Assembly: GCA_043228905.1 (NCBI GenBank)
Contig: JBHGNT010000013.1
Span: 12,090,001-12,154,000, forward strand
Source of the DNA: Azolla caroliniana
Taxonomy: Eukaryota; Plantae; Polypodiophyta
DNA length: 64,000 nt
Direction of reading: 5' to 3'
In this document: one piece after another, positions 558 to 57,709 of the stretch
Numbering within the stretch: the first letter of the stretch is position 1
Layout of the letters: every line of letters begins with the position of its first letter
Notes under the pieces: model-generated
What the model saw: only the letters and a program-made list of their open reading frames with translations
Databases searched by the model: none
Told to the model about the DNA's origin: nothing
Translations under genes and position numbers: made by a program

Positions 558-1621
558 TGTCATGAAGATTTTCGGCAATAGTGTGAAAATCCCATAAAAC
601 GTACAAAATCGACTATAAATCACATAATACAATAATTGTGAAGATAACATTTTAAATAAATTTAATATCTAAGTACAAAATGATGGAGGTTTCGAATGCA
701 ATTTATTACACGAGAAACGGACAACTAAATGTCAAGATATGAGGGTATAAAGTTTGTGAAAGGAAAAGAGAAAATTGTGAGATATCCCACATAGGCACGA
801 CAAATACGGCTCTCATCATATATAAGGTGGAGCAAAAGATATTATCTTTATGTCTATGTGTGGAGCATAGAGAGTTCAAGGTAACTTGAACTAAGAGTGG
901 AGGTGGGCTAGCTACTCGTAAAGGGTTTTGGCCAACCAAAACCGGACCGGCGATGGAGCCGGTGATCCGGCGGCATCCGACGCTAGTGAGACACCAGCAT
1001 CCGACGGCAATCCGGCACCGGTAACCGACGACATCCGGCGACTAGATAAATAAATGTATAAATATATATACATATATACATATACAAGGAGGGCAAGTAA
1101 GGATTCAAACCTTGTACCTCCAAGTTAAAAATCAATTGGCTTACCATTAAGCCATGCTATTTAGTTGAAATTATATTTCTATCATTGTACTTTTACATGT
1201 AAATTCTCATACATGAGAGCTAAAATGAGTGACATGGTTATCATGCACCACATGTAATACATAAGCGCCAAATGGCAAACATGCAATTTATGCATGTCTT
1301 GTACCCTCACATGCATCATATGCATGAGAGTATCTATAAAAGAAGGAAGGGGGAGGAGAAAAAACACGTTTTTTTTTATGAAAATTAAGAGGAAGAAATT
1401 CGTTATGAAATTGATCGTGTAACTTGTTTCTTAAATCTAAAGTTAAAAGTTCAATCAATCTCTCTCAATCGTGTAATCTCAACTTCTCTCTTTCCCAATC
1501 TATCTTAAGTACTTTCTCGCTAAAGCTTGCGCCAAAGCTTGTACCGACTTTGAATCCTTCCGGTTCAGAACCCCGACGGTTCCGCCTCACGATCCGTGCG
1601 TAGTGACGGATCTTCACGACA
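558..1621 (+). mobile_element. 3' LTR of a Ty3/Gypsy element
   Basis: It starts TGTCATGAAGA directly after the PPT and ends TCTTCACGACA, a terminal inverted repeat. The right flank is ACGT, then Copia gag-pol sequence. Confidence 0.85.
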
Positions 1622-4016
1622 ACGTGCTCAATTCTTCAGTTGTAAGCAGGTCTTTTGATTTGCTTGAGTTCTCAATTGATAGTATATTTGGGTCGTTTGT
1701 CAATACTTTGGCCGAAGAACTGATGTAGTTGATCTCCTCTTGTCGGCCACTCTTCTGCTCGGCTCCCTAAGCCTTATCGTTTTTGGCCTTTAGTGCATGA
1801 CAATCGGCTTTTATGTGTCCGGGTTTCTTGTAGTAGTTGCAGACTTGATTATCCTGGGACTTGCTCTGACTTCGTTGATTATTCAACTACCATGAAGAAC
1901 TTCTTCCACGGTTGTTCGATCAGTCGATCGAACCTTGTACTACGTTGTCGTAGTGTAATTCGCACACTACGTGAAAATTTGCATTTTTGGTCTCTCCGGA
2001 TAGGACATGGAGTACTCGGTGAGAACTGGATGAAGAAGGCCGGTGAGAGTCTCTCACCGGATGAAGAGACATATTTGTAAATAGAAGAAAGTATAAATAT
2101 ATATATTACATGCATAAGGCAAAATTCGAACCTTGCACCTCCATGTTTATAATGTAAAGCCTTACCATACACTAACATATCATTAGTGTTAAAAAAAGTA
2201 AACGTCCCACATAGAAAGGTAAGTTCACGCTAGAATAAACTTTAGTTAGAAGAAAACGCATGATAAAAGAAAAAGCTACGCATGCACATGTAGCGTGCAT
2301 GAACACCATAATCGATAAAAACGCATCAAGTTAGAAAAGGTAGGATCACTTTAGAAAAAGCATGTTAGAGAAAGCATAGAGTCTATCTATAGAAAAAGCA
2401 TGGATTGTTAAGACTCTCTCATCACTATATAAGGATGAGGAGCACAATATAATAGGGGGGGGTGTGGAATATTTGGAAATTGGATATATTTCCTAAAACA
2501 CGAATTAATACAATATAATTGTGGGATTCACAAGTTTTTAATATCTCTCTTTTAATCCAATTTTTTATTCTTATCTTAATATTGAATAATCTAATACAAT
2601 AGACTCGTGGGATTCACGAGGTTTCTTTATCTCTTTCTTAAAATCTATTTATATTCTTATTAACCTTAAAACTCTCCTCCTCCTAGTTCAAAACCCCAGT
2701 GGTTCCCACCCAACTCACGCAACGATCCGGAGCTGAAAGGCATGACAACGTAAGAGTTGTTGGCTGAATCGTTAGCAAACGATTTTCTCCGAGCTGCTTC
2801 AGTTAGAATTGCACTTGTGACTGAGGAGTACTTAACGGCAACTGTCAATGCATTGCACACGGTTGTAACGAAAGTTTCCCACGAGGGAGGGAGACTACTC
2901 ATGAGTAGCATTGCTTTTAGTTCATCCTAGATAATTGTCTTTGGGCCAAATTTTGGGAGCTTAAGCTTTCGTACTCGTTCAGGTGTGCCTGGACCGAGTC
3001 AGACTCTTTCATCCAAAGGTTATAAAGGCGCCGAATAAGATATGTCTTGGTGGCGGGGACCTTCTTTTCGAAAGTGTCTGAAAGTGTCTTCCATAGTTGG
3101 AAGGCAGTCGAACACGATTACACCGTGAAGTACATAGACTCCGATAGGTGCATCCGAATGGTGGCTCGGACGATTCTGTCGAGCTTTTCCCATTTAAGCA
3201 ACTTGTATCCTTCTGGAGGGTCTACATTCTCAATGGGGTCAATTTGCCCCTTGACTACTAAATAGTCATGCATCTACTCCTTCCAGAAGTTGAACTTCGA
3301 TCCGTTGAACTTCCTTAGACTCATTTATGATGAGCCGGATGTTGAAGCCATCTGTGTTGGTATAATAGACTTTGTCCGGAGTTAGCTACGAACTGTGATG
3401 GAGTGCAGCAGCTTGGCTCACTCTATGCCGTTCTAGCCGAAGTTGAACACAACTCGTGTTGATTACGAATATCAATGAATCATGTTTGGAGTGACTACTG
3501 TCAACTGAATTAGTCGAGTTGAACCCGAATTTGATGATTCGATTTTTCTTGAAATTTCTCAACATGGATTATATGCAATACTCTAGGCCGATCCAATTTC
3601 AGTTAACTACAGAGATGAGAGGGACGGATCCGACCAGTCCTCCCGAATGTCGTTCAGTTGAATGAAACATAGATTGGGGTTGCCCCTGGAGTCGTGTTTG
3701 CTTCAAGTGACTACGACGAGTAGGAGAAAAGCGTCAGATGACCCATTCGATTTCCGCCTAGCCAAGTGAAGCAACGATTTGGCCTAGTCAACATAGAAGT
3801 CTCACTCCGAGCGGCTATGATCACATAACCAAGAGTGACCTAGAACAATAGAGAATGTGTAGACTTTGTCACGTTTCTCTTTGTGTAAACACTCTTGTTG
3901 TAGGTTGCCTGTCGAGATCAGCTAAGATCATCAGGATACACAAACGAGAGTTGTCTATGGAGACTAGATAGAGGGCGACAACAGAATCAAACAGACGACC
4001 AAGCTTTGATACTAGA
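1622..4016 (-). mobile_element. Degenerate Ty1/Copia internal region (gag, zinc knuckle, leader), interrupted by a solo LTR and cut by the Gypsy at 1621
   Basis: The minus strand gives FNGSNFNFWK, LLMSSLPPSWETFVTTV and CNYYKKPGHIKADC, with stops. A degenerate tRNA-iMet PBS complement GCTTTGATACTA lies at ~4003-4014, next to TGTTGGG at 4017. Confidence 0.8.
1946..2747. mobile_element. Solo LTR of the Gypsy family with a 4-bp TSD ACGT
   Basis: Termini are TGTCGTAG...CATGACA, with ACGT at 1942-1945 and 2748-2751. Removing it rejoins the Copia frame (NNSYV|VQGS). Confidence 0.85.
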
Positions 4017-5757: not shown

Positions 5758-5896
5758 ATGATGGTGGAGGAGCATTTCATCCTCCGTGTTCCACCCTCTG
5801 TTGCTGAGCGCCTGGAGCGGGTGTTGAACGAGGTTCCATGTTCCCCCCAAGATCTCGACATCGACCTCTCCTTCATCGGTCAGTACACCATTATCT

Positions 5897-11942: not shown

Positions 11943-14900
11943 AATCTTGCGGGATAAATATTATCCTCAAGTGGTGCATAATGATCCTTATGGTCGGTTT
12001 TTGGTTCTAGAAATCATGTTTTTTGGCGAGGTTGTGTGGGTGGTTGGGATTTATGCCCCTAACGAAGCCACTTAACGTATTGCATTATGGGGCTCACTCC
12101 TTCAAACCCTATGTGTGGGCTGTCCAGGATTACTTATGGGTGATTTTAACATGTGTGTTGATGTATCTCAATCTACTTCTGAACATTCAATCATGGATGA
12201 TCCTGAGCAACTTGTTTGGGATTCATTGGCTATGGAGGTTTTGAAGTTGGATGTTTGGACATGGTTGCATGGGAATGATCCAGGTTTTACTTTCCAATCT
12301 GCTTAACATAGACAAACATGGAGTCGGTTAGATAGAATGTATGTGATGCACGGTGATTCTTTTTTACCGACATCACTTCGTATGACAGTTCTACAAGATG
12401 TAGGAACTTCAGATCACTTTCCTATTTGTTTGGAGGTTTGTAGTCATGCATTTGACATGTAATCCTTACTTGGAAAGCCTCCATTACGCTTTAACTCTTC
12501 TCTTTTGCTTCAACCTCATTTTGATTCTCTCATGGAACAAATTTTGGTAAATTTTTCACAAGAAGTGAATATTAAAGGAGTTCAGCATGGGATATCACGT
12601 TACGAAACATTAAAATCATTCATCGTATGTATGGAGTAACTAATGCTCAACGAAGAAGAGGTCTTCTTCGACAATTCTTACAAGTTCTCTCCAGGTGTAA
12701 TGCATTATTGATACATGCACCATTAGATGAGGAGCTTTTGGATATCCAAAGTTAATTGCAGGTTATTATTTCTCAGTTGCAATGCCAAAGTTATAGTTAT
12801 GCGAAGATGCGTCAACTGAGGGATGAGCTCATAGATAATCAATGTCAATCTCATTTGTTTTTTCAAGCGTTACATCCTACCTATGCTCGATCTAATGTGG
12901 TACATGTGAAGCAAGGGGATGAATTGATAGTGGATTCTACTACAATAATTGACATATGTGTTCATTACTTTAAGGGGTTGATTGGCCGACAATTGTTAAT
13001 GACAAATGAAGTGAGTAGAGCACGTAATGAGTTTTATGATGTGGTTGGATGTATTGTGCATGACCTCATTAGTCAAGAATTGGATGCGGATTTCACTGAG
13101 GATGAGGTGGACACGGTTTTAAGGCATCTTCTTAGTGGTAAGAGCGTTGGTTCGGATGGCTTGACAAACGAAGTTTTTAAGCGATATTTGAACGTTTTAA
13201 AGGGGCCCGTAACTTTGATGTTTCAACATTCTTGGGATTCTGGTTGTATGCCTCAAGGTTGGAAGGTTGGTCTAATTAAATTAGTTCCAAAGGTGGCATC
13301 TCTCGAGTCATTTCATCAATGGAGACCTATTTCTTTGATGGGGGGGTTCTACAAGATATTTACAAAGGTCTTAGCAAATAGATTACAAAAGTATTTACCA
13401 AAGTTGATACATCCTGCCCAATATGGTTTTATTGCAGGTAGGAATATATTGCATAATGTGTTGAATGTTCAAATGGCCATGGATTATGATCGAAACACTC
13501 ATCAAGAATTGATTATGGTGCAATTAGATTTGGAAAAAGCTTATGATCATGTTAATTGGTCCTTTGTTTTTGGGTTAATGCATACAATGGGCTTTGGACC
13601 TCATATGTCTCGCCTCATATTTTTATAAGGACAAGATGCGGTATCTCAAGTAATGCTTAATGGGGGAGTTACATCAGATATTTCTCTCACAAGATTCGTT
13701 CGTCAAGGATGCACTCTTAGCCCATTGTTGTTTGTTATTGTTGATCATCCCTTGTTAGTGATGCTATCAAGGCTTGCAACAAATCGTGACATTGTGGGTC
13801 TACACCTTCTGTCTGGAGGGCAACTAGTAGCATAAGCTTTGGCTGATGATTCTTTCATGTTTCTACAAGCCTCATGAAAGAACTTGAGAAGGGGATGCTT
13901 TTATGGAACCAATTTGCATTGGCTTTCGGATTACATATTAATTGGAGGAAGTCTAGTCTTATATCATGTACTGAAAGGGATTTGGAATGTTTAGGATGAC
14001 ACTTGGGCTCTAGTTTTTGGCACTTGGGCTATCCATTAGGAATGAATGTTACAAATAGTCAATTGATTGAATGGATGTCTAGTAAGTTGAGGGATAAGTT
14101 CATGTATTGGAAGTCACAATCTTGGTCATTTCATGTACGCTTGAAGGTTGTACAATGTATTATGGAACCCATGATATTATATTACTTGCCATTGTTCCCA
14201 TGGACAAAGAAGGCTTTACATTATGTTTTGCAACCTCTTCAATATTTGTTGTGGAAAAAAAGGGATAAGATGGGAATCACTTGGGTTACGTGGAATCATC
14301 TAGCAACCCCTAAGCGCTTGGGGGGAGCTGGAATATTGAATTTATCTATGCATATGATGGCTCATAGATTTTTATTATTACAAGTCATGTGTTCAAACTC
14401 ACAACCATGGATATCTATTGTTTAATATTTCATTGAGAACAAGGGTTTAACACATGGGAGGACACCGATTAAGGCTTCGTGGTGGCAATTACTGAATGGA
14501 TGTATTTCACTTAGGATTCTAGGCTCTTCATGTGTTCAACACTTGGTTACTTCATGGAAAGAAGCACTCTTGTTATGTGTGTGAGAAAAGTTGTTAATAG
14601 CAATAGCGGAACAGTTGTTAGAACAAAATAGACATAGCCAAGCTATGAGAAGGCTGTTAGACAACAGTAAAAAAAAAAGGTTGCAAAGAGTAGAAACACA
14701 ACCAAAGAGTAGAGCTTGTTATTAGGTAGCAGCAAAAGTAAAAGTCTTTACAAAAGAGGCTGTTATAAAATTGGGAAAAGTGAGTGAAATGGTTGTTTAG
14801 TAGTTAAATGACTCTTGTACTACCAAACAGGTACAATAAACTTGGAATAAGAGTGAATATCTTGGAAAAAGTGGAAGAGAGAAGGCATTTAAAGCGGTGC

Positions 14901-17900
14901 AGATTCTAGAGAGAAAAGGATTTAAAGAGTTGCAGATTCTAGAGAGAGAAGAATCTAGGAAGAGAGAGAATGTACAATAGAGATAATAACGATGAAAGAG
15001 AGTGCAAGTCTAGAGCTGCCACCCTCCAACACCTCCTCTCAGCTCCAGAACGGCGGTCCAACATTGAGTCGACCAAGGAGCTGATCAATGGCATGCCTTG
15101 GAAGTGGGAAAAAACATAGAGATTGTTGTCAGCATAACAGTTCTGAAACCCAAGAGAGAGAAAGAAGGTGTCAATTTTTTCATGCCAAGCTTTGGGAGCT
15201 TGCTTTAAGCCATACAAGGCTTTGTGTAACCTGTAGACCATGTTTTTCTGCTCTAAAATCTCGAAACCTGGAGGCTGTTCAACATAAACCTCCTCTTTCC
15301 AATCACCATTAAGGAAGGTTGACTTGACATCCATTTGAAAGGTGGGCCATTTGTTGTGAGCAGCAAGTGCAAGCGCACCTGTTGGAGCAAAAGTTTCCTC
15401 GTAATCCACTCCTTCGACTTGTGAGTAGCCTTTTGCAACTAAATATGCCTTGTGCTTATCCGACGTATCATCAGCATGGTACGTGGGCTTGAAAATCCAT
15501 CTCAGTCCAATGACTTGTCGATGTTGAGGCTATGGAACCAGCTCCCATGTATGATTCCGCTCAATGGAATCAAGTTCAACTTCCATTGCTGCTTTCCACT
15601 TTGGAAGATCAAGGGCCTATTTTGCTGTTGTGGGTTCTTGTGATTGCACAATAAGGCAAAGTTGCATGATTGAAGAGGCCGTTGTGACCTACGTATTTTT
15701 TTCATGTTGGTCAGAGAACCGGATGTATACTCATGAAGTTCAGCATCGGAGAGATGAGAATCACGAATGATGCCTTGAAGCCACTTGGGAAGTGGTGGAA
15801 GTTGGTGTGTAGAGGGAGGGGAAACGAGTTGAGTTGACGGAGAGTTTTGAATTGTTGGCGAAGTTAGAGATTGAGTAGGAGGATATGGGGGGCTTGAAGG
15901 TGAGACATCTTCGTCTAAAATAGGAGATTCCGGAGCAACTAGGATTTCAACCGTGAACTCAGGTGAAATCCTAGAGTCATCCGGCTGAGACTCCACAAAA
16001 TGAACATCCCTAGAGATGACTAGGGACTTTGATTCTAAATCCCATAACCTGTAGGCTTTAGATTGTGTGTTGTAACCAAGAAATTTGCATTTCTTGGTTT
16101 TGGACTCAATTTAGTCCTTTTATGATCTGAAGTGTGAACATAAGTTGCAAGCATCACAACCAAAGACTTTAAAATGAGATACTGAGGACTTTACACCTGT
16201 AAATGCTTCTGCAGGGGTCATTGCAACAACTGCTTTTGTTGGGCAGCAGTTGATAATGTAGACTGCTGTGTTGACAGCTTCACCCCAAAACGAGAGAGGA
16301 AGATCAGATTAAGATAGCATTGTACGAGCCATCTCTTGGACTATCTGGTTCTTCCTTTCCACAACTCCATTTTGTTGAGGAGTATTGGGTGTAAAAATTG
16401 GCGAGCGATGCCTCGTTGAGAGCAGAAATGGTGGAATGCTTGGGAGATAAACTCGCCACCATTGTCGGACCTGATCATTTGAACTTTCTTTGAGGTCTCG
16501 TTCTCAACAAGAGCTACCCATTCTTGAAATTTGGTGAAGGGTTGAGATTTCTCTACAAGAAAATAAACTCAAACCTTATGAGAGAAATCATCAATTATAA
16601 GCATGAAGTAGCGTGCACCACCAAGAGTAGTGGTTTTCATGGGACCACAAAGATGCATGTGCACTAACTCCAAGATAGATGTTGCACGGTGAGTGGCTTC
16701 ATGAGGGAAAGGCTCTCGATGTTGCTTGCCATGAAGACAAGCAACACATGGGGTATTGGGAGTTTTGAAAATAGGCAAACCCTCAACTAGATGTGAAGAG
16801 GAGAGCTTTTGTAGAGAATCGTAGTTGAGGTGACCATAGTTGTTAAAAAACGCGTATTCTACGTTTAGAGTACATTTTAGAATATTCTGAAGTATTCTAC
16901 GTTTAGAGTACATTTTAGAATACTTTGAAGTATTCTACACGTATTTTACGTTTTAGAACTGCCGTTTTTAAAATTTTGACGTATTCTATGTATTCAACGT
17001 ATTTAACAAGTATTTATCATTTCAAAAAATATTTTCTTTTTTTTGAAAAAAAAAAACTTTAAATTTTAAAAAGTATTTAACGTATTTTACAAGTATTCTA
17101 CACGTATTCTAAGTATTCTAAACGTATTCTAAGTATTTAATGTATTTAACGTACTTTATCTATAAAATACGTATTCTAAGTATTTAAAAAAATAAAGTTA
17201 GAATACTTGTAGAATAAATAGAATACGTATTGTACGCGTATTTTATGCTACATATTTTACAACAACGGAGGTGACCGAACCTAGCATGCCACAATGTGGG
17301 ATCTTCTTGTGCCGCCACCAAGGCATGAGAACCTTGAAGAAGATGAGATTTGGATTTTTCCAAGGGGCTGTGGGAACTTTTCAGGCTGTATAAGCCCCCT
17401 TCTTGTGTGCCTCTAGCTACAATTTGTAGGCTGTTGGTGTCAATGACTTCCAAAACTGAGTTATCAAAGTAGACACCATAACCTTGCTTAGTGATTTGGT
17501 AGACCGAGAGTAGGTTGGCAAAGATTCGAGAGGCACGTGTAGCACATCTTGAAGAACGGCAGGTTCGTCATTTGAAGAAGCGTTAAGAAACACATTACCC
17601 ACACACAAAGCCTCAATGCTTCAGGCATCTCCTATGGAGATTTGGGAGGAGCTAGGCTTCAAAATCATGCAAAATGGATTTGTCATAAGTCATGTGTGCA
17701 GTGGCACCACTGTCTATCAACCACTCATCAATGGTTGAGGTAGTTGTTCCAGCCAAATAAGATGAATGTTCCACAATGCCAAGGAAAACTGTTTCTTTGG
17801 CTGAGTGGACCGAATTTGATTTTGGTGTAGGTTGACTTTCGGTAGAAGAAGATTTCTTGGCATTGTCCCTTTTCTTTTTTCGACAATTGGGCTGAACCTT

Positions 17901-45555: not shown

Positions 45556-48133
45556 CTACGAGCACTCTCTGTTGTAACCGTCGTCTGGTGAAGATCACGA
45601 GCACGAGGTCATTGCCTCTATGCCTCCACTTTGTATTTTCTCTCATAAAGTGATAGTTGGAGTCTGTGGGCTCCCATGGTTTTTTCCCTATTAGGGTTTT
45701 CCACATAAACATCCAGTGTCATTTCTATGTACTCTCTCGTTCATTCCTATTTTTGTGATTCAAGACTCGATTGTGGCCGAGCGATATTCCGCACTATTCT
45801 TCACAAATTGGTATCAGAGCGAACAACACAGAAAATGGAAGAATCGTTTGACAACATGTTCAAGCTCACCGGCTCCAACTACTCAGTGTGGAAGTCGAAG
45901 ATGAGGGACATGTTGGTGGTTAAAGATCTTTGGTTGCCGGTTTAGTTCAAGGACAAGAGACCGGATAAGATCGACACCATAGTGTGGGAGGTGATGCACA
46001 TGAAGACGATGACATACATCCGGTGTTTCATCGACATGAGCCTATACAACAACTTCAATGAAGAGAGCAAGGCTCATGAACTCTGGGAGAAGATCGACAT
46101 CATGTTCCAGAACAAGAATGTTGTTAACCGGGTTTCGGTATTCTGGAAGCTAGTGAGGCTCTAGTACCAAAACGACTCCAATATGGCAGAGCACATGAAT
46201 GCCTTCCAGGGGCTGATACATCAAGCAACCTCGTTGGAAGTACCTCTCGCCGATGAGGTACTCGCATTGCCCTTGCTTGGTTCCCTCCCGGATAGCTGGG
46301 AGATGCTAGTTGTCACGTTGGGCAACACCGGGCCGGAAGGAAAACAGTTGTCCCTAGCAAGGGTAAAATCAAGCTTGCTAGATGAAGAAGCTCGCCGGAA
46401 GGACCGGGAGTCCGGAACCGATCCGAAGGCCTTGGTCACGGAAGATGACCACAATCGGGGAAGAGGCTGGTATTAGAGTCCCCAAAACCGGGACAAATCG
46501 AGAACGAGGTCGAAGTCAAGGGGGAGGCCTACTTGCTTCTACTGTGGGAAGCCGGGGCACTTCCAGAAGAACTGTTGGCATTTCCAGAAAGAGAAGGAAA
46601 CTGGCACCACCGATTCGAAGAAGAGTTCGGACCGGAGAGGCCCGGATCGGAAAGGAACGTCGGCGATCACGACAAGTGAAGAAGAACTTATGCTCATTAC
46701 CGAATAGAATGAGTTAAACCTTGTCGGCGACGAAACAACGTGGGTTGTCGATTCCGGAGCGTCGTTCCACCTAACACCGGACCGGAGATGCTTCTCATCC
46801 TACACAATCAATGATCATGGTTGTGTCTGGATGGGGAATGAAGGTACATGCCGAATTATTGGCATAGGAGATGTGTTGTTGAAGGATGTCTGACACGTTC
46901 CGGAGGTTCGACTAAACCTGATATCAACTCGTTGGCTAGATGATGAAGGCTACACGGGTAGCATCCGGAACGGTGTTATGAAGTTCAGCGAGGGAAGCTT
47001 GATAGTGCCTCAAGCCCGAAAGATCAACACACTGTACTTGATGAATGCCCGGATATGCTGGGAAGAAGTGAATGTAGCATCCGATGCTACCGGTGAGCTA
47101 TGGCACAAAAGACTGTGTCACATGAGTGAGAAGAGGATGAAGAGGCTAGCCGAAGACAACCTCATTCCGGTGAAGGACGTGCAACTTGAGAAGTGCATCG
47201 ATTGCTTGGCCGGGAAGCAAAACCGAACCTCCTTCCGGTCAAGACCACCGATGAGATGGAATGCACTACTGGAGCTGGTGCATACCGATGTGTGTCAAGT
47301 GGACACGAAGTCACATGCCGGATCACAGTACTTCGTGACGTTCATAGATGACCACAGCCGGAAGTTGTGGGTCTCAACATTGAAGACGAAGGATCATGTG
47401 ATATCCGTCTTCAAGGAGCTCCACGCGAGAGTGGAAAGAGAAACCGACTGGAAGTTGAAAGCGGTTCGAGCTGATAACGGAAGAGAATATCAAGGGCAGT
47501 TCGAGGAGTACTGTCGGTTGAAGGGAATCCAACTCGAATTTACCGTTCCGAAGACGCCGGAATTGAACGGGTTGGCCAAAAGGATGAACCAGACCATAAT
47601 GGAGAGAGTTCGAAGCATGCTAGCACATGCCAAGTTACCCAAGATGTTTTGGGCTGAGACATTGATGACGGCGACCTATGTGATAAACAGATCACCCTTA
47701 GTACCCTTGGATGGAGACTCACCTCAGAAAGTATGGACCGGTAAGGATGTGGCTTACCGGCATCTGAAGGTGTTCGGATGTCTCGCATATGTGCATGTGG
47801 CGAAGGACAAGAGAGCAAAGCTAGATCCAAAGTCGCGCCCATGCATATTCCTTGGATACGGCGATGATGAGTTTGGTTACCGGGTGTGGGACCTGGTGGA
47901 CAAGAAGGTGTTCCGGAGACAGGACATAGTCTTCATGGAATACATGACCATTGCCGACTGGGAGTCGGAGAAGAAGATGATCAATTTTGGATCATCCAAT
48001 GAAAACCGGCCTGAGGAAACAAGGACCTACCCGGTTGAAAAGCAAATGTTAGCCGGTAACCGGATGACACTCGACGAATTGGCTGGATACGGATAGGAAC
48101 CGCACTGGCCGAAGAAGAAGACACCGGAACCGG
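45339..48133 (+). mobile_element. Ty1/Copia 5' part (LTR 45339-45805, PBS 45809-45820, gag, protease, integrase ORF 46978-48096)
   Basis: It has TGGTATCAGAGC, CFYCGKPGHFQKNC, WVVDSGAS, LWHKRLCHMS, FVTFIDDHSRK and RADNGREY. It is interrupted by the Gypsy at 48134. Confidence 0.9.
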
Positions 48134-51100
48134 TGTCGTGAAGAAAACCGTCCCCAGGCGCAAACCGTGTATAGCGTGTGTGAACCGGCCCTTACACGTG
48201 GGCACGCCCCTTGTTGTATAGTAGATAGGTAGGCACAAAAGTCGAATCCTAGGTAGCAAGATTCTATAGGGAGAATCGAGGAGTATCTCTGTCCGAAAGG
48301 ACAGAGAATTAATGCGATGTAAACGGGTGAAACGGCCTCCCTCCTTGAGCTATAAAAGAGAGGGAGACGGGGAGAGAAGGTATCGCGCGCTAGAGGGGAC
48401 GAAGTTTTGTCGGACTGGGACCGAGCTCTTCTTCTCTGTCGTTCTCCATAGCTTTCTTTTGCGCAGGTTCTCAGGAGGCTGATTCTGCTCCGTGGAACGC
48501 CCGTGTGCTTCCGGCAGAATCTCCATCTTGCTCCCCTGTGTGCATAGGTGGGTGATCAGGCGTCGGCATCCATCTCGCCGACCTGATCGGCTGTAACCGT
48601 TCGAGTCGTCCGCATACATACAAATACATACATATTTTTATATACATACGCTAGTGTTCTCAACTCGTGTCTCCTGTGTTGATTGGGCCGCGTCCCCGTG
48701 CGCTTCTTTGTCTATACGTGTGTGAGCGTCTCTCTCTTTCTCCCTCTTTTCTCACCTATTCCTCAGTCCAAGACCCTAGTGGTCCCGCCTTGTTCTCCAC
48801 ACACGCGCGTAGCAACTCGACATCTTTTGGTGAACCCGACGTGAATAGGCAGCAGAGGAGTAGAAGATGAGGGGGTCGGATCTCGCAGAAGCCATGGCTT
48901 CGGCTGTGGACCGTATAGTGAGTGCGCACGAAGGCACCGGCGCCCTTGATAGGACTATCGAGGCGGTTGTCGGTACGATCGGCCGATTTAGTGGGAAGGA
49001 TGCCACGAGCTACTTGGCGTCCTACCGGGCTGAGATGGTAATGAAGGACATTCCGGAAGAGAGGCACCTAGCCGGATTCCCTCAAGTGGCGATGTCGGGC
49101 ATCCATACGGAGGTGCTCGAGGTACGGGCCGAGAGCCGGACCTGGGAGGAGTTCGAAGGTCGACTCCTCGAAAAATACGGGCTTGAAGATGTGCTTCGAC
49201 TTTCGAAGCGGGACTTCATGGAGTGGGTGGAGACCCCCGACAAAGGAAGGAACGCGTCGGTGCTCCTCTGGGAGTTTGAGGAACGCATCGCGCGCCTCTC
49301 GGTGCTTGACCGGACCATTCTGGACACAAGTCGTGTCCTATTGTTTGTTAAGTCAGTTGACGAGTGGGATCGGGAGCAAGTAGGCCTCCTATTGGAGACT
49401 GATGACGGGCTGACGGCCGACTGGGCCGTGGTGAAGAGGGTTTGTGGCCGTTTCGACAAATGACGGGAATGGGTTGACAAAGGATCGGCAGGGGCGGGCT
49501 CTGTCGCAGCAAGGAAGCTCGAGCCAACACCACCAACGCGAAGGGAAGAGACCCGAGATTGGCTCGAGACCGGATCGGCTTCGACCGGCATGGTCAAGGG
49601 CTCGCCCGGGGAAGCAGCTCTGGAGGAACTGACGCGGATGGTAAAGGATCTCCAGATCGCCCAAGCACGGAGGGACAGTGGCGAACAGGCCCGTGACCGA
49701 CGACCTTTGGCTGGAAACAGGTGCATGTGGTGTGATGCGGTTGGCCACATTTGGAAGGACTGTGGGGACTTCGCCGAGGCGATGAGAAGCAACGTGATGT
49801 ACCTGTGGAACGGTCGGGTGCACGCCAGCTAGACCCAAAGGCCCCTGGACCTGAACGTCGGGCGAGGAGGTATGAAAAGGCTGATGGAGGAGGCGGCGGC
49901 TCGTCACGCGGAGACCGTCCACTACTCGGCGTCAGCTGATATTCGGGTCAGAGGTGGCGAGGCCCTGAAGACGAACAAAGCCGGGTTCTGGCCGACAATG
50001 CTAGAAGGCCTCGCCGGCGCATGACTAAGGAAAGAAGAGGCGGACCGTGCGGAAAAACGGGTTCGGGAGGTAACCGGGTGGAGTGACCCGATGGAAGAAA
50101 AGACGGGCTTCGTCGAAGCCGCTTGTCAAAACTACGAGGCTCTGGTGGAGGACAAGCGGGTAGGAAAAACCGGAGGGGCCGGGCCCTCGCAACGATATGA
50201 AACTCGATTCGGGCAAAGGCGGAATGAGGCCGATGTAACCGGCGCCCAGGATAATCCCAAGAAGGGCGGGTACCGGCTGGGCACAGAAATCGAAAGATCC
50301 ACGGACCTGCGAAAGGTCCTGGAAGAACGAATCCTCGACAGCAAGGTGGAACTATCGCTGAGGGAAGTGCTCGGGATCGCCAAGAAGGAGTTCCACGACT
50401 CCATCGTAGACTTGGTGAAGAGGAAGAGGCTGTCGACGGAGACAGAACCGGAGAAGCCGGTGGAGGTGCGAACGACGCACATAGAGGACATGGCGTTGGA
50501 AGACGTCTTGGCGGAGAGCCACTATTCAAGGCCGCATTGGGCCAGAGCGACCACGGAGACCCCCGTGAAGATCGGAGATGTTCATGAACCGGTGGTGGCG
50601 TTGGTGGACCACGGTTCAGAAATCAATTTGATGTCCATGGACTTCTACAAGAAAGGGAAATGGCCGATCAACACCAAGCACGGGTGGAAAATACGGGCAG
50701 CGACGCGTTGTCGTGAAGATTTTCGTCCATAGGCGGAAAACCGAGCGAAGCAAGCAAACCCGCGATGTGCAACGTTGCACATCACCATGTTGTATTTCTA
50801 TTTATCGATAGTGATAAGTATGGTGCTAGAAATGCACCTTAGGATTTGTAAAGTGTAGAGGTGATGTGCTTTTGCGCGCACATCCACGTGAGAGAGAGAG
50901 ATAGGTACATAGTAGTTCGTGTAGAGGTGGGAGTTAAGACCCATCCTTCCCACCTCCCCTAAAATCAAGGGAAATATCCCCATTGATTGAAAGGGGATAT
51001 TTTGTAGCACCCTTTTATGTAACGGTCTTCCCTCCTTGTGCTATAAAGGGAGAGGAAGAGCACCATTGTGGGGGTTGCCTTATTTTGGAGTGAGAGTAAG

Positions 51101-51393
51101 GTATACCATTTCGTTTAGGGTTCATTAGTTAGGGTTTCTTTTCTTCTTCGTCGGATTAGGGTTTCGGGTTTTTCATAGTCGTTCGGTGCGGCCTACGCGG
51201 CCGCCATTTTGTAATCGGTTTTCGGTTCTAATATAACTTGTTGAGCATTTGGCCTCCATCTTCCTCTTGTTCATTCTTTCTCTTCTTGTGCTAAGCTCCA
51301 TTCCGAAGTCCTATTCCTTCTCCCCTTCTCCTTAGTCCAAGACCCCCGTGGTTCCGCCCTTCTCCACGCACGCGCGTAACAACGCGACATCTT

Positions 51394-51410
51394 TGGTGAA
51401 CCCGACGTGA
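51394..51410 (+). promoter_or_regulatory. Primer-binding site complementary to the tRNA-Trp 3' end
   Basis: TGGTGAACCCGACGTGA is complementary to ...UCACGUCGGGUUCACCA. The same sequence follows the LTR ending at 48822. Confidence 0.85.
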
Positions 51411-51431
51411 AGGGCGGCAAGGGAGAAAGAG

Positions 51432-54400
51432 ATGGAGGAAGGCTTCGACTTCGAGGAGATGATGACAAAGATCTTGACGGACGCCGGACGGAAGAGGGCG
51501 AGGCGAGAGGCGGCTCAACAAGCGGTCGAAAGGGTGGTCCGTCTAGTCGGCCGGTTCGATGGGAAGGAGGTCCCAAAATTTTTGAGAGCCTACGATGCGG
51601 AAATGACGGGGATGGGCGTGGACGAAGCGACGAGGCTAGAGTTCTTTCGTCGAGCGGCGGCCGCATCAAAGTACGAGGAGGTCAAGGAGCTCCAAGAAGC
51701 TCACGAATCGTGGGAGTCCTTTGAAGGGGCTCTAATGGAGGCATACGGGTGCGCGGAATCGGAGGTAAGAGGTCGGCGAGAGTTCGATCGGTGGATGGCG
51801 TCGGCGAGGCGCCATCGGAGCGCAATAGAGGCATTCCGAGAGTTCGAGCGTCGTTTCTCTCAACTCTCGGAGTGGGAACGAAGATCGGTGGGGGCGGACA
51901 AAGTCCTCCTATTTTTGAAGACGGTCCATCATGAGGAGAGGATGGACATCATGATCGAGCTTCAAGACGATTATGGGGCGCATGGTCTCACCGAGGAGTG
52001 GCCCGAAGTAGAACGGGTGTGCCGACAACATGATAAGAGGTGGTCGGCCACAACACGACCCGCGAGCGGGGGAGAAGAGAGAGCTACGACCGACTACGCC
52101 GTGCCGTCGGACGAGAGCTCATCGCGAACCGGTTTGGAGGGGCTCGACCTACAAGCGCTAATACGGGAGGCGTGCGGGCTCGTAACGGCGAAAATCGAAG
52201 CCGAAGAATGGCTTATTGCGGGGTCGGGCCCGAGCGGATCGGAGGACGCGGAGGAAGGAGCTTCCTCACACATGGAGGACGGGGCCTATGCGGAGGCCGA
52301 AAGAGAATGGTACATCGGTACCACGGGAGAGGGTGCGGAGCGAACCGCCCTCTCGACATGGGGAAAAAGAACGGCCATGGACGAGGCCGATATCTACGAA
52401 GCGATGGACGCCACTTCGAGAGTGGGCGGAAGTTTCGGGACGCGGTTGCCCGAAACGTTCTACGAGGATTTCGCGAGCTTACTCGAGGCTTGCGAAATGG
52501 AGGAGGAAGACGAAACGAGCGATGGTGTCGCGACCTTCCACACACCGGCCCTAGAGGCTTCGGCGGTCGGCCCGAGTGCCGGCACGAGACCGAGAGCTAC
52601 GGATGGTGGCGGCGGCAAGGCGGACAACCGAGATGAGGACGAAAACGGCGAAGAAGAGGCGGCGGCAAGCATACTCGATGCTTGCGAAACCAAAGACGGG
52701 GTAGCCACGGACGACGATGTCCGAATGGAGGTGGCTACGGACGAGAGGAGTGGTGGTGTCGCGACCTTCCACACACCGGTCCTAGAGACTCCGGCACCCG
52801 GCCCGAGAGCCGGCGAGAGGCCTAGAGTGACGGACGGTGGCGGCGGCAAGGCGGGCAACCGAAACGACGACGACATGGGAGAGGGTGCGGAGCGAGCAAC
52901 CCTCTCGTCTTGCGGCGAATGGACGGCCAAGGATGAGGCCGGTGACCACAAAGCGGAGAGCGCCACTTCGAAAGTGGGCGGAAGATTCGGGGCACGGCGG
53001 CCCAAAACATCGAGCGGAGGGGAGGCGAGCGGTGGTGCCGCGACCTTCCACACACCGGCCCTAGAGGCTTCGGCGGTCGGCCCGAGTGCCGGCACGAGAC
53101 CTAGAACGACGGGCGGTGGCGGCGGCAAGGCGGGCAAACAAAATGATGCGGAGAACGGCGAAGAAGAGGTGGTGGCAAGCATACTAGAGGCTTACGGAAT
53201 CGGAGATGGGGGAGCCGCGGACAACGACGTCCGAACGAAAGCGGCTACGGAGACAACAAGCGGCGGTACCGGGTCCTTACCCACACCAATCCTAGAGGCT
53301 CCAATGGCCGGCCCGAGTGCCGGCATGAGGCTTAGTGCGACGGGAGATGACGACGGCAAGGCGGGCAACGGATACGAGAAGGAAGATCGGAGCGGACGGA
53401 GGCAAGACCCCTTGACACCGGAGCCGGAGACTTCGGCGGTTGTGCTCGGATGCCAACGTGAGACCGGAGAGATGGGCGGTGACCGTGAGGAGGTGAGGCC
53501 CGGAGAGAGCGCATACGAAGACGAGTATGCGGGGCCCGGAATGGGCGTATACGGTGGGTCCGACGGAGAGGACCGGAGCGGAAACGAGGAGAGAGTCGGG
53601 AACCGACCCGACCGGAATACGGCACGGAAGAAGAAGAGAGTAAGGGCCGGCGAACCGGGCCCAAACCGAAGGAAGCCGGCAAGACCGATTGTACGGTTAC
53701 GGTTACGGTTACGATGGGAGCCGGTAAGCGCGAGATGGAGGCTAACCGGGCACGACGACCATGGTTCGGGGGAAAAACGGAGACAAACGAGACCCTCCAT
53801 ACCCACTCTAGAGACTACGGCGGTTGCGGATCAACATAAGACCGGAGAAACGGCGGGTGGCGGCGAGGAGTCGGAGGCCGGAGCGTACGAGGTTACCGGA
53901 ACGGATATCCGGTACGAGATGGTGGACGGGTGGGTCCAAGACGGCGAGCCCGTGTCGGAACGGGCTACGGCGACAAAGGAGGAGAAGACCGACACGGAGG
54001 TCGGGTCTACGGCGGGAGAGCGAGACGAGATGCATGCAATACGGCCGAGGGAGGGCCAAGACACAAGCATGCCTACGAAGGAGCCACATCGAGCGACCGA
54101 AGATGACGGTCGGATCACGCCTTCGAGAGGCGAATACGAGGAAGAAGGCGGCGACGACGAGACCTGGCACGATGCTAGGGAAGATTGGTGGGAAAAGGTG
54201 GCCTACGGAGAGGCTAAGACCGGCGGCCACGAAGATAAGGCCCGAGAGGGATCCTCCACACCGGCTATAGAGACTCCGGCGGTCGGCGCGAGTGCCGACG
54301 TGAGACCAAGAGTGGCGGACGGTGGCGGCGAGGGGACGAAGGCCACAACGGATGAAGGCACCGAGAGAGGCATACGGGAGGTCGCGGGGAACGAAGACGT

Positions 54401-55181
54401 ATGCGCCCAAAAGAACGAACACGACATCACGAAGGATGTGTGCGGTCGAGCGGGCCAAGAGGGCCAAGAAGGTGTTCCTCCGAGCGAAACGGAGATCGGG
54501 GAAGAAAGGTACCTTTCCGAAAGGGTACGCGAAGAGGAGCGGAATGCGAAACGTGCAATGCGGCCGCATGAGGGCCAAGCAACGAGCACGGGAATGATGG
54601 TATGCTCTACGGCGAAAGAGCACGGAAGGCGAAGGGAAGGCGGAAGATGCGCGATGGGGTCGTCGAAGGACCGAAGCACGAGCACGCATTCGGGGGAGAG
54701 CATCGACATACGGGGAAAGCCCACGGAAGGCAATCACGGAGCGGAGAGAGTCGGCACGGCGAGGTGTGCGGCACGGGAAAGGCGGACAAAAGAAGAGCAA
54801 CCGGGTCGGCAACGGCGTTCGGGAGGACCGATCGGGGAAGAAAGCTCGGGCATCGGAAACGGCGGTCCGGATGTAGACGGTGGTTCGAGGAATCACGGTG
54901 GACGTGGCGGATCGGGTGGAGGCAACGACTCGGCGAGCATCGTCGAGTGTGGCGGATCGGATGGGGCCGACGGTTCGAGACCATTCGACGAAGATGGTGG
55001 GCCGGAAGGCGACGGTGGTTCGTGTGGACGGGGTGGACTTGCTCGAAGTGGAAGACGAAGCGGGGCAAGCCCACGAGGTTGTCAAGGGCTCGGTTGGCCG
55101 CCTTGGCCGAAAATCTCGCGTTTTGTTCCCCTTTTGGCACATACCGGTGGATGTGCGGTTAGGTGGGGGCGGATGTCGTGA
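51432..55181 (+). CDS. 1249-aa Gag-like protein: N-terminal capsid-like domain plus ~1000 aa of acidic, Gly-rich repetitive tail; no pol domains
   Basis: The first ~200 aa align with the host gag at 48867 (GRFDGKE/GRFSGKD, WESFEGAL/WEEFEGRL, VLLFLKTV/VLLFVKSV, GLTEEW/GLTADW). The ORF is uninterrupted and its stop lies inside the 3' LTR. Confidence 0.85.
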   Translation: MEEGFDFEEMMTKILTDAGRKRARREAAQQAVERVVRLVGRFDGKEVPKFLRAYDAEMTGMGVDEATRLEFFRRAAAASKYEEVKELQEAHESWESFEGALMEAYGCAESEVRGRREFDRWMASARRHRSAIEAFREFERRFSQLSEWERRSVGADKVLLFLKTVHHEERMDIMIELQDDYGAHGLTEEWPEVERVCRQHDKRWSATTRPASGGEERATTDYAVPSDESSSRTGLEGLDLQALIREACGLVTAKIEAEEWLIAGSGPSGSEDAEEGASSHMEDGAYAEAEREWYIGTTGEGAERTALSTWGKRTAMDEADIYEAMDATSRVGGSFGTRLPETFYEDFASLLEACEMEEEDETSDGVATFHTPALEASAVGPSAGTRPRATDGGGGKADNRDEDENGEEEAAASILDACETKDGVATDDDVRMEVATDERSGGVATFHTPVLETPAPGPRAGERPRVTDGGGGKAGNRNDDDMGEGAERATLSSCGEWTAKDEAGDHKAESATSKVGGRFGARRPKTSSGGEASGGAATFHTPALEASAVGPSAGTRPRTTGGGGGKAGKQNDAENGEEEVVASILEAYGIGDGGAADNDVRTKAATETTSGGTGSLPTPILEAPMAGPSAGMRLSATGDDDGKAGNGYEKEDRSGRRQDPLTPEPETSAVVLGCQRETGEMGGDREEVRPGESAYEDEYAGPGMGVYGGSDGEDRSGNEERVGNRPDRNTARKKKRVRAGEPGPNRRKPARPIVRLRLRLRWEPVSARWRLTGHDDHGSGEKRRQTRPSIPTLETTAVADQHKTGETAGGGEESEAGAYEVTGTDIRYEMVDGWVQDGEPVSERATATKEEKTDTEVGSTAGERDEMHAIRPREGQDTSMPTKEPHRATEDDGRITPSRGEYEEEGGDDETWHDAREDWWEKVAYGEAKTGGHEDKAREGSSTPAIETPAVGASADVRPRVADGGGEGTKATTDEGTERGIREVAGNEDVCAQKNEHDITKDVCGRAGQEGQEGVPPSETEIGEERYLSERVREEERNAKRAMRPHEGQATSTGMMVCSTAKEHGRRREGGRCAMGSSKDRSTSTHSGESIDIRGKPTEGNHGAERVGTARCAARERRTKEEQPGRQRRSGGPIGEESSGIGNGGPDVDGGSRNHGGRGGSGGGNDSASIVECGGSDGADGSRPFDEDGGPEGDGGSCGRGGLARSGRRSGASPRGCQGLGWPPWPKISRFVPLLAHTGGCAVRWGRMS

Positions 55182-57709
55182 AGATTTTCGTCCATAGGCG
55201 GAAAACCGAGCGAAGCAAGCAAACCCGCGATGTGCAACGTTGCACATCACCATGTTGTATTTCTATTTATCGATAGTGATAAGTATGGTGCTAGAAATGC
55301 ACCTTAGGATTTGTAAAGTGTAGAGGTGATGTGCTTTTGCGCGCACATCCACGTGAGAGAGAGAGATAGGTACATAGTAGTTCGTGTAGAGGTGGGAGTT
55401 AAGACCCATCCTTCCCACCTCCCCTAAAATCAAGGGAAATATCCCCATTGATTGAAAGGGGATATTTTGTAGCACCCTTTTATGTAACGGTCTTCCCTCC
55501 TTGTGCTATAAAGGGAGAGGAAGAGCACCATTGTGGGGGTTGCCTTATTTTGGAGTGAGAGTAAGGTATACCATTTCGTTTAGGGTTCATTAGTTAGGGT
55601 TTCTTTTCTTCTTCGTCGGATTAGGGTTTCGGGTTTTTCATAGTCGTTCGGTGCGGCCTACGCGGCCGCCATTTTGTAATCGGTTTTCGGTTCTAATATA
55701 ACTTGTTGAGCATTTGGCCTCCATCTTCCTCTTGTTCATTCTTTCTCTTCTTGTGCTAAGCTCCATTCCGAAGTCCTATTCCTTCTCCCCTTCTCCTTAG
55801 TCCAAGACCCCCGTGGTTCCGCCCTTCTCCACGCACGCGCGTAACAACGCGACAGCGTGCCACCGAAGAACTGCATGGAGCCTGCCCGAATGTACGAGTA
55901 AAGATCGGCGATGTCGAGATTGACCAACACTTCTTCGTGCAGGAGATGTCCTCACATCCGGTTATACTAGGAGAACCGTACATCACGACAGCACGGATGG
56001 AGACCAAGGTGCTGGACAACGGCTCAACCTATGCAAGGGTCAAGAGCCAGGATGGGCGTCACTCGGTCCAGTTCCTGACGGTGAGACCGAACCATGAGCG
56101 GAACCGCGAGACCCTCGGGGGCGAAAGCCGAGAGGATTTTTAGAGAGGGCTATCAAGGCGTGGGGTCGCGGTAGTCCAGACACTTCGGGAAAACCCCACA
56201 AGTGTACGATAGCGAAGAAGACCTGTACTATAAGTAGGAAATTTTGGTTCTCCGACAACGGAGGGTGTACGATAGTCGACGTCGTTGGCCGGAAGAAGAA
56301 AAGGCCTTCGCCGAAAGGTCGATTTACTCGGTCGGTGATCTGTACTCGGGGTACGATCAGTTCCAGCTAGCCATAGAGAGTAGAGACATCACGACAATGC
56401 GAACTCCTCTCGGCCTAGTACGGATGTGTACCCTACCGCAAGGAGGGACGAACTCGGTGGCTCACATGGTGAACGCAATGAACAAGGTGCTGAGGGATTG
56501 TATCCCGAACATCAACATGCCGTTTTTGGACGACGTGCTGATCAAGGGATGCCCGGTGGAGGAAAAGGACGAGACGATCGGACCGGACGGGTGCCAGAAA
56601 TTCGTGGCGTTGCACATCAATGACTGCGAGAAGGTGCTGTAGAGGTTAGAGGGCGCGAGGCTCACCTTCTCCGGGGGAAAATCGGCCTTCGGCCAATCAG
56701 AGATCATGGTCGTCGGACACCTATGCAGGTCGTACGGCCGGAAACCGTCTCCGGCTAAGGTAGAAGCCATCTCCGCAATGAAGCACGACTGTAGCTCGGT
56801 CACGGAGGTTCGGAGGTTCTTGGGAGCATGCGCGTTCTACCACATATGGATCCTGCATTACGCCCATGTCGCGGAGCCGTTATACGGGTTGCTGAAAAAA
56901 AGGTGAAAATTCGAGTGGAGAGACGAGCATACGGAGTCTGTCCGAAAGATGAAGGAAGCACTTGCCGCAACTCCGACGCTCCGAAAGGCTGTCTACGAAA
57001 AAAACACTCCAATTTACGTAACGGTAGACACAAGTCCGACCGGGATCGGATGGGTCGTCAACCAAGAGGACGAGGACGGCATGCGTTTCCCGATCCGGTT
57101 CGGCGCGAAGGTCCTCAGTGAGTGACAACGAGGATACGCCCAGGTTAAAGGTGAGCTCTGGGGTATCGTTTCGGCGGTAAAGGCCGATAAAGACTACCTG
57201 ATTGGGACAGAGGTAATTATCGAGATGGACTGCCTGCCAATTCTTGGCATGGTTTCCGGATGCGCGACGCCAGACCTAGCAATGCTCAGGTGGATAGCGT
57301 ACATCAAGTCCCTGAATCCGGAAATACGACACATTTCCGGGAAAGACAATGCCATGGCCGACATGCTTTCAAGGGCAAGGTTCGAAAACGCGGGCGGCAT
57401 GGTTTCGGAGGACGAGGAAGTCGGCGTGGACTTCTTCGAGGCGGCTTACGTAACAACTGGTAGGGAATGCACTCCAACGCTTAACGATTTCGACGAGAGC
57501 AAGTACAACGGGGAGTGGCTGTAGATCGGCGGGTTCCTGAAAACAATGACACCGGACGCGGCATGGACAAAGGATGAGGCCAACCGGATTCGGAAGAAAG
57601 CGTACCGATTCTTTCTCCGGGACGGGTACATATGGAAGCACCCGAAGAAGAGGAACGACATCCCGCTCCGAGTGGTGGCGAAGGAGGAACAAGAGGATTT
57701 GTTGGCGGC

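What the first reader, a model, noticed from the sequence alone, without database searches (positions are those of the whole stretch)
558..55858. Gypsy family inserts at 4-bp targets centred on CpG
All four visible insertion junctions of LTRs beginning TGTC(G/A)T have an NCGN flank. These are ACGT (1622-1625, one flank only), ACGT/ACGT (1942, 2748), CCGG (48130-48133, one flank only) and GCGT/GCGT (50705, 55855). The Copia elements here have ordinary 5-bp TSDs. All four targets lie inside other retroelements, and the visible integrase C-terminus has no chromodomain. Inference: a CpG (possibly methyl-CpG) target preference that would steer insertions into TE-rich DNA. The sample is only four junctions and two lie in GC-rich hosts.
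Basis: partly seen in the sequence, partly recalled or inferred. Interest (0 to 1): 0.7.

Follow-up and report, generated by a model that had tools for sequence, protein, structure and literature searches.

The report
CpG-targeting Phygy-like plant retrotransposons
These plant jumping genes almost always insert at a four-letter site centred on CG, a habit already published for the moss Phygy lineage to which they likely belong, and the choice is likely made by their integrase reading the DNA letters rather than methylation marks.

Summary
All four window sites are NCGN; two have a complete 4-bp duplication, and two Copia elements have 5-bp ones. In 25 further junctions of the same LTR group from public metagenome contigs, 23 are NCGN and 2 are NTGN, against 4.1% CpG in the flanks. 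It is not new: Neumann et al. 2019 list Phygy with 4-bp TSDs (100%, NCGN), a tRNA-Trp PBS and no chromodomain. These elements match on TSD, missing chromodomain, missing aRH and, by recall, PBS type. No named Phygy sequence was available, so clade membership is likely, not shown. The host is likely a fern, outside the moss where the motif was described. The site is narrower than NCGN (VCGB, 26 of 27), the same outer-base rule as 4-bp-TSD retroviruses. The methyl-CpG idea is untested and not needed: no methyl-reader domain was found, several targets lie in CpG-poor DNA, and young TEs are simply 2-6 times richer in CpG.

The parts
3..485 (+). Integrase C-terminus of a Gypsy element that runs off the window start; SH3-like fold with WFGPY, short acidic tail, no chromodomain
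   Evidence: ORF; Pfam SH3_Tf2-1 E 0.0037 only; 94% identical to P0002, a RT-RH-INT protein
546..557 (+). Polypurine tract abutting the 3' LTR
   Evidence: sequence; the same tract precedes LTR starts in metagenome loci
558..1621 (+). 3' LTR (1064 bp, TGTCAT...CGACA)
   Evidence: start homologous to L002 and L066
1622..1625 (.). Target flank ACGT (one side only), in a minus-strand Copia gag-pol
1942..2751 (+). Solo LTR 1946-2747 (802 bp) with 4-bp TSD ACGT/ACGT, inside Copia gag
   Evidence: similar LTR ends are followed by the PBS and gag in L003 and L099; start shared with L011
1626..4200 (-). Host Copia element (degenerate gag with zinc knuckle), hit twice; limits approximate
   Evidence: separate translations of the pieces
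14575..19434 (-). Control: Copia 14580-19429 with 5-bp TSD ATGTG, LTRs 93.8% identical
45809..48129 (+). Host Copia element (PBS 45809, gag, integrase ORF 46894-48096), cut by the Gypsy insertion
48130..48133 (.). Target flank CCGG (one side only)
48134..48822 (+). 5' LTR (689 bp) of a degenerate, pol-bearing Phygy-like element
   Evidence: start shared with 9 matches in other loci
48828..48844 (+). Primer-binding site after a 5-nt spacer; read as tRNA-Trp type from recall
   Evidence: tRNA identity not confirmed by a tool
48864..64000 (+). gag, DUF4100, protease, RT, RNase H, integrase in Gypsy order, with stops, interrupted by two insertions, running off the window end
   Evidence: Pfam DUF4100, RVT_1, RT_RNaseH, Integrase_H2C2; 73% to P0002
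50705..55858 (+). Young non-autonomous element 50709-55854 with 4-bp TSD GCGT/GCGT; LTRs 50709-51389 and 55174-55854 identical; PBS 51394-51410; PPT 55162-55173; one 1256-codon frame with a gag N-terminus and a long low-complexity tail; no pol
   Evidence: uninterrupted host site in contigs
57705..63644 (+). Control: Copia 57710-63639 with 5-bp TSD GCGGC, LTRs 97.7% identical, inserted between RNase H and integrase of the Gypsy host

Best explanation
These are chromodomain-less Ty3/Gypsy LTR retrotransposons, likely of the Phygy lineage, that insert at CG-centred sites with a 4-bp duplication, likely because their integrase cuts with a 4-bp stagger and recognises the short palindromic sequence VCGB itself. 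Shown: Gypsy domain order, 4-bp TSD, CG centre, avoidance of T at the first and A at the last base, shared LTR termini, PBS and PPT, and a pol-less partner with the same ends and target. Inferred: the integrase bends the target at the central pyrimidine-purine step, as 4-bp-stagger intasomes do, and narrows the choice to CG by base contacts, perhaps through the conserved loop before WFGPY in its C-terminal domain. The solo LTR would have arisen by LTR-LTR recombination, which keeps the TSD, and the non-autonomous element would borrow Pol in trans. Nesting in other retroelements would follow passively, because young TEs are the CpG-richest DNA here.
For: Window: 4 of 4 sites NCGN. Outside: 23 of 25 junctions NCGN, 2 of 25 NTGN, flank CpG 0.041, binomial 3e-30; 20 of 22 after dropping three doubtful ones, p 2e-18 even at 10% CpG. 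Majority lines of unrelated flanks before the LTR start end in NCGN in 3 of 4 runs, including one built from 29 contigs. VCGB in 26 of 27 intact sites against 42-49% among background CpGs, p 3e-9 to 1e-7. Phygy row of Neumann's Additional file 5: 186 elements, 4 bp (100%) NCGN, tRNA-Trp 81%, no extra domain. No chromodomain or MBD/SRA/CXXC-type Pfam hit and no second RNase H in 7 of 7 relatives at E up to 1, bar a weak RVT_3 overlapping the one RNase H in P0045. 4-bp-TSD retroviruses select a central YR step and disfavour T and A at the outer TSD bases, largely independent of chromatin (PMC4422553, abstract and section 6). Five of 25 flanks have CpG at or below 1.3%. CpG is 0.017 in the gene-rich middle and in the old Copia, 0.038-0.100 in younger TEs.
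Against: No named Phygy sequence was found, so the tree (quick method) has no labelled reference. The PBS-tRNA match is recalled; a prokaryotic scan found no tRNA-Trp and five bacterial tRNA-Arg genes with a similar stretch. Estimated lengths (about 6.3 kb for the 48134 element; about 7.3 kb for L015/L016) are below the P. patens range 7656-9968. The 25 outside junctions show one flank each, so TSD length is not seen there. One run's majority line ends ACAT; L054 is TCGC; a low-scoring candidate in L055 (flank AGGA, E 47) was left out. The loop's conservation is partly by construction of the search, and two distant rows lack it. Phygy is reported as centromere-enriched in a liverwort, which sequence preference alone may not explain.
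Confidence: 0.8

Rival explanations
1. The integrase prefers methylated CpG, a chromodomain-free way to reach silent, TE-rich chromatin.
For: All four window targets lie in TEs; 12 of 25 outside flanks match a TE or repeat. Two targets read NTGN and family variants are mostly C>T and G>A, so these CpGs are likely methylated at least after insertion. Phygy nests in Tcn1 in P. patens (PMC6911290 passages) and is centromere-enriched in Apopellia (PMC12885004 passages). A 1992 title on CpG methylation affecting retroviral integration in vitro was seen in a reference list only.
Against: No methyl-reader domain in 7 relatives. Drosophila ZAM-subgroup elements target CGCG (PMC5408687 passages) in a host that, from recalled knowledge, lacks CpG methylation machinery. 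CpG density alone can give the nesting. No methylation data were available.
Confidence: 0.13
2. The elements are a separate CG-targeting lineage that only resembles Phygy (for example TatI-like, Selgy-like, or an unnamed fern-liverwort clade).
For: No P. patens name among 83 and 120 listed homologues or 10 cluster look-ups. Lengths are shorter than P. patens Phygy. TatI also has a 4-bp TSD and tRNA-Trp PBS.
Against: TatI always has aRH, absent here; Selgy uses tRNA-Ala. NCGN is stated to be unique to Phygy among the plant lineages surveyed. Relatives at 60-70% occur in the liverwort Riccia, and Phygy is reported in a liverwort.
Confidence: 0.12
3. The CG flank is chance or an artefact: GC-rich hosts, small sample, or CG being part of the element's end.
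For: Only four window sites, two in hosts with 5-9% CpG; a Copia TSD here (GCGGC) also contains CG.
Against: 23 of 25 independent flanks that are otherwise unrelated. 3' LTRs are preceded by the PPT and 5' LTRs followed by the PBS spacer, not by NCGN. Uninterrupted host copies carry the site once.
Confidence: 0.01

Closest known systems
Phygy clade (non-chromovirus Ty3/gypsy of Physcomitrium patens; Neumann et al. 2019, PMC6317226: passages, section 9 and Additional file 5 read)
   Same: 4-bp TSD with NCGN motif, no chromodomain, no aRH, compact internal region, PBS read as tRNA-Trp type
   Different: Host is likely a fern, not the moss; estimated lengths 6.3-7.3 kb against 7.7-10.0 kb; motif here resolves to VCGB; a gag-only non-autonomous partner is present. 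Additional files 1 and 3 (per-element TSDs, sequences) were too large to read, so VCGB may also hold in the moss set.
TatI and Selgy clades (same paper, Additional file 5)
   Same: Non-chromoviruses with 4-bp TSDs; TatI also primes with tRNA-Trp
   Different: TatI has aRH (100%), absent here; Selgy uses tRNA-Ala; no NCGN motif is listed for either
Drosophila ZAM-subgroup errantiviruses (PMC5408687, passages)
   Same: Ty3/Gypsy integrases with a short palindromic CG-containing target (CGCG)
   Different: Animal lineage with AGT termini and, in ZAM and Tirant, three ORFs; here TG...CA ends and no env seen. Likely convergent; relationship not tested.
4-bp-TSD retroviral intasomes PFV, MoMLV, PERV, XMRV (PMC4422553, abstract and section 6)
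   Same: 4-bp stagger, central pyrimidine-purine step, T and A disfavoured at the first and last TSD base; PFV and Ty3 integrases are the nearest solved structures
   Different: Their YR enrichment is modest (63% above random); here the centre is almost strictly CG
TR-GAG non-autonomous retrotransposons (search listing only; definition recalled)
   Same: LTRs, PBS, PPT and a gag-derived ORF without pol (50709-55854)
   Different: The ORF carries about 1000 extra low-complexity residues with internal repeats

Membership tests
Ty3/Gypsy superfamily | Domain order gag-PR-RT-RH-INT between LTRs | tested here: met
   DUF4100, RVT_1, RT_RNaseH, Integrase_H2C2 in that order along 50025-63933; same in P0002
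Phygy | RT/RH/INT cluster with P. patens Phygy references | not testable with these tools
   REXdb file too large; no P. patens name among homologues. The quick tree groups the window RT piece with Adiantum and Riccia proteins, apart from 26 of 28 distant rows, but has no labelled reference
Phygy | 4-bp TSD | tested here: met
   2 of 2 sites with both flanks; uninterrupted host site
Phygy | NCGN target motif | tested here: met
   4 of 4 window sites; 23 of 25 outside junctions, other 2 NTGN
Phygy | PBS mostly tRNA-Trp | tested here: inconclusive
   A 17-nt PBS ending in the CCA complement follows both 5' LTRs and 104 of 119 loci selected for it have a GACA LTR end before it. Its reading as tRNA-Trp is recalled; no eukaryotic tRNA was at hand
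Phygy | No chromodomain, no aRH | tested here: met
   Window tail; 7 of 7 relatives at E up to 1; 74 of 77 tails end within 127 residues of the GPY motif, most within 60-75
Phygy | Length 7656-9968 bp (descriptive; the authors call size relatively insignificant for classification) | tested here: not met
   Estimate about 6.3 kb for the degenerate 48134 element; about 7.3 kb for the collapsed unit of L015/L016 (from coordinates). Hence filed as Phygy-like
Tat clade TatI | Additional archaeal-type RNase H (aRH) | tested here: not met
   No separate RNase_H or RVT_3 domain in P0002, P0003, P0005 or the Riccia relatives
Chromoviruses (Galadriel, Tcn1, Tekay, Reina, CRM) | Chromodomain at the integrase C-terminus | tested here: not met
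Methyl-CpG-targeted integrase (hypothetical) | Preference for 5mCpG over CpG | not testable with these tools
   No methylation data or biochemistry; no reader domain in Pfam scans

The most novel reading that the evidence does not exclude
The Phygy-type integrase reads methylated CpG directly at its active-site bend, giving a bryophyte-to-fern retrotransposon lineage a chromodomain-free, DNA-mark-based route into silenced chromatin.
Probability: 0.13. Interest if true: 0.72.

Novelty: new member of a known kind. Interest (0 to 1): 0.25.

Why it matters
The motif itself has been in print since 2019, as one sentence and one table cell for moss elements. What this adds is modest: the same near-strict CG targeting in several high-copy LTR families of a likely fern, the narrower VCGB form, and a very young gag-only partner. 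Sequence-specific LTR integrases are rare in plants, so the lineage is a handy system for asking how an integrase reads bases and whether 5mC changes that. A CG-seeking element in a genome where CpGs decay would also tend to pile into young TEs and spare old, CpG-poor DNA. That would shape nesting in large fern genomes, but it is inferred, not shown.

Tried and rejected
No whole genome is held, so no genome-wide logo. Viral-contig scans for the U5 motif and a tRNA-like motif found nothing; the first prokaryotic scan found nothing and the second gave 120 loci with 6 tRNA genes (5 Arg, 1 Leu), none Trp, so the PBS type stays recalled. The protein atlas did not answer. Rfam: no family in 48000-56000. 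ARAGORN: no tRNA in the window. Searches for a named moss reference failed. The careful tree did not finish; the quick tree is used, with 5 of 33 distant rows dropped for short alignment. Rows left out of the 25-junction count: LTR starts preceded by the PPT (L005, L015, L016, L025, L032, L041 at 745, L045, L047, L066, and profile hits in L012, L013, L035, L052, L063, L065); false internal starts where homology continues upstream or lies in a microsatellite (L022, L027, L072, L111, L081); two LTR ends followed by a spacer and a decayed PBS-like stretch (L014, L066); low-scoring profile hits not at a plausible LTR start (L045, L049, L051, L055 at 232, L067); reverse-strand reads of LTR ends. 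Kept but doubtful: L049 (flank is a relative's 3' UTR), L016 right end (collapsed contig), L029 (weak profile hit accepted with the flank in view). VCGB as a novelty was lowered after one search showed the same outer-base rule in retroviruses. A split-LTR layout noted elsewhere in this scan does not apply: 50709-55854 has two whole LTRs. Literature: whole-word searches for Phygy or NCGN, Phygy+LTR (18 papers listed), Phygy+fern and Phygy+Marchantia showed no title on the mechanism of Phygy targeting or on Phygy targets in ferns; only four of these papers were opened. A search for fern CG methylation gave nothing usable.
Full report
Observation. The coordinates are right. An integrase tail (3-485), a polypurine tract and a 1064-bp LTR (558-1621) are followed by ACGT. 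A solo LTR (1946-2747) has ACGT on both sides. A 689-bp LTR at 48134 follows CCGG. A 5146-bp element (50709-55854) with identical 681-bp LTRs has GCGT on both sides. In both two-sided cases the fifth bases differ, so the duplication is 4 bp, and contigs of uninterrupted copies of the host run on at 50707 with the site once. The two Copia elements whose ends were both checked have 5-bp TSDs, ATGTG and GCGGC. The hosts are Copia gag-pol (two sites), a Copia integrase end, and the protease region of a Gypsy relative. With local CpG at 0.04-0.07, four CG centres have probability 7.6e-6, and any shared central dinucleotide 2.4e-4. The four LTRs are different families that share TGTC...GACA ends and a U5 motif.

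Anatomy. The element starting at 48134 has a PBS after a 5-nt spacer, then gag, DUF4100, protease, RT, RNase H and integrase in Gypsy order, with stops, cut by the 50709 element and by a Copia. The 50709 element has the same PBS and PPT and one 1256-codon frame whose first 200 residues are gag-like (35% over 173 aa to the host gag); no pol match was found. It is a young non-autonomous partner. A near-identical homologue of the integrase tail (P0002, 94%) and six other relatives have no chromodomain, no methyl-reader domain and no separate second RNase H at E up to 1.

More junctions. No genome is held. Many carry the same LTR ends and gag as the window, including ends like the solo LTR. LTR starts and ends were called by homology between loci or by a flank-free profile. 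After removing starts preceded by the PPT and internal false starts (listed under Tried and rejected), 25 genomic junctions remained, 23 left and 2 right. Of these 23 are NCGN and 2 NTGN (L011, L055), as CpG deamination would give; flank CpG is 0.041, binomial 3e-30. Dropping three doubtful rows leaves 20 of 22, p 2e-18 at an assumed 10% CpG. Most loci come from one series of assemblies of the same or a close host, so they are independent insertions, not independent taxa, and each shows one flank only. Separately, contigs laid on PPT plus LTR start give majority lines of unrelated flanks ending CGCGT (5 contigs), CACGT (29), AACGG (2) and CACAT (6): 3 of 4 runs NCGN.

Finer motif. Among 27 intact sites (23 outside, 4 window), 26 have no T first and no A last (VCGB), against 42% of flank CpGs and 44-49% of window CpGs, p 3e-9 to 1e-7. 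The exception is L054 (TCGC). Serrao et al. 2015 (PMC4422553; abstract and section 6 read) report that 4-bp-TSD retroviruses select a central YR step and disfavour T and A at these same outer positions, largely independent of chromatin. VCGB is therefore the general 4-bp pattern with the centre fixed to CG.

What is known. Neumann et al. 2019 (PMC6317226; passages, section 9 and Additional file 5 read) state that Phygy elements have an insertion preference for NCGN, the one exception among the plant lineages surveyed. Their table gives 186 elements, 4-bp TSD in 100%, tRNA-Trp PBS in 81% and no extra domain. Jedlicka et al. 2019 (PMC6911290; passages) found 4-bp TSDs with GC-rich centres, 4 bp most common in Phygy, and Phygy nested in Tcn1 in P. 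patens. Phygy is reported, and centromere-enriched, in the liverwort Apopellia (PMC12885004; passages). Drosophila ZAM-subgroup elements target CGCG (PMC5408687; passages). PMC8282616 and PMC7466625 (passages) added nothing on targets. Neumann's Additional files 1 and 3, with per-element TSDs and sequences, could not be read and bear on both membership and VCGB.

Membership. TSD length, motif, and absence of chromodomain and aRH match Phygy and exclude TatI and chromoviruses. The PBS reading as tRNA-Trp is recalled and was not confirmed. The defining test, clustering with P. patens references, could not be run: named homologues were Riccia (42-68%), Adiantum (68%) and Chara (42%), none from the moss. 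A quick tree of 66 rows puts the window RT piece with the Adiantum and Riccia proteins, apart from 26 of 28 distant rows, without a labelled reference. Estimated lengths (6.3 and about 7.3 kb) are below the moss range. I file the elements as Phygy-like, membership likely.

Host. A tRNA pseudouridine synthase exon (25041-25403) is 63% identical to an Adiantum protein, 59% to a Pteridium protein and 45-50% to named angiosperm proteins (14 hits among 82 candidates). No named bryophyte or lycophyte protein was among the hits, so 'fern' is likely, not shown. Neumann's text does not contain the word fern.

Mechanism. Shown: the target rule and the element anatomy. Inferred: the integrase, whose nearest solved relatives are Ty3 and PFV integrases, bends the target at the central step and reads CG. 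A loop just before WFGPY is highly conserved in 84 aligned rows (Q 81, H 76, K 83, R 80) and missing in the two most distant. By recall, the corresponding loop of PFV integrase contacts target DNA, so it is the first place to test; its conservation is partly an effect of how the rows were found.

Methylation and steering. Nothing here shows methyl-CpG reading. Flank CpG runs from 0.3% to 10%, and 5 of 25 flanks are at or below 1.3%, so no CpG-dense neighbourhood is needed. Twelve of 25 flanks match a TE or repeat in a small library and 13 do not, some being short; there is no background, and assembly favours unique flanks. In the window CpG is 0.017 in the gene-rich middle and the old Copia, and 0.038-0.100 in younger TEs, so a sequence-only rule gives a 2-6-fold pull toward young TEs. 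All four sites falling outside the middle has a hand-estimated probability of 0.09-0.28 under CpG-proportional choice. For the rival: two NTGN flanks and C>T/G>A-dominated variants suggest these CpGs become methylated, and the liverwort centromere enrichment hints at regional bias.

Earlier notes of this scan held nothing on this lineage; notes on split-LTR Gypsy elements with 4-bp TSDs describe a different layout.

Verdict. A real and sharp target preference, confirmed well beyond the four sites, but already described for Phygy. New member of a known kind in a likely fern; interest 0.25. The methyl-CpG reading stays open at about 0.13.

Noticed in passing
window 51411-55181: The youngest insertion (identical LTRs) keeps one uninterrupted 1256-codon frame: a gag N-terminus plus about 1000 acidic, Gly/Ala-rich residues built from 230-550-bp internal repeats, no Pfam hit, no pol. 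A relative lies in L016 (75-89% DNA identity). Why the long frame stays open is unexplained.
   Followed up: partly
L001-L119, PBS junctions; window 48823-48827 and 51390-51393: The spacer between LTR end and PBS varies from 2 to 7 nt (62 of 106 are 4 nt, mostly TCTT or TATT), while the PPT abuts the LTR directly; the scan pattern limited the range seen.
   Followed up: partly
all junction flanks: The base just outside the 4-bp site is C in 15 of 31 flanks and G in only 2, a hint that the palindrome extends to six bases.
   Followed up: no
L010, L030, L040, L041, L049; window 50705: Several insertions lie inside other members of the same lineage (gag, pol, LTR or 3' UTR), which are the most CpG-rich DNA seen.
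   Followed up: partly
L009, L018, L021, L043, L050, L058, L070: AT-rich loci with the same PBS behind different LTR-like ends (mostly ...TAAACA), no gag match to the window; likely other Gypsy elements of other organisms.
   Followed up: no
window 5656-8194 and about 10170-26033: Host genes: TAF7-like exons (Pfam TAFII55_N) and a tRNA pseudouridine synthase whose long intron holds LINE pieces and a whole Copia.
   Followed up: partly
window 20568-24011: A LINE RT fragment present as two tandem copies about 1.7 kb apart, 82% identical.
   Followed up: no
window 8699-9043: A 345-bp self-complementary stretch (78%), possibly a MITE.
   Followed up: no
window 4223-4387 and 45174-45339: Two 87% identical LTR-like fragments 41 kb apart.
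   Followed up: no
window 28500-37300, minus strand: Short exon-like frames of a further unannotated coiled-coil-like gene, and a 60-bp tandem repeat at 36866-37125.
   Followed up: no
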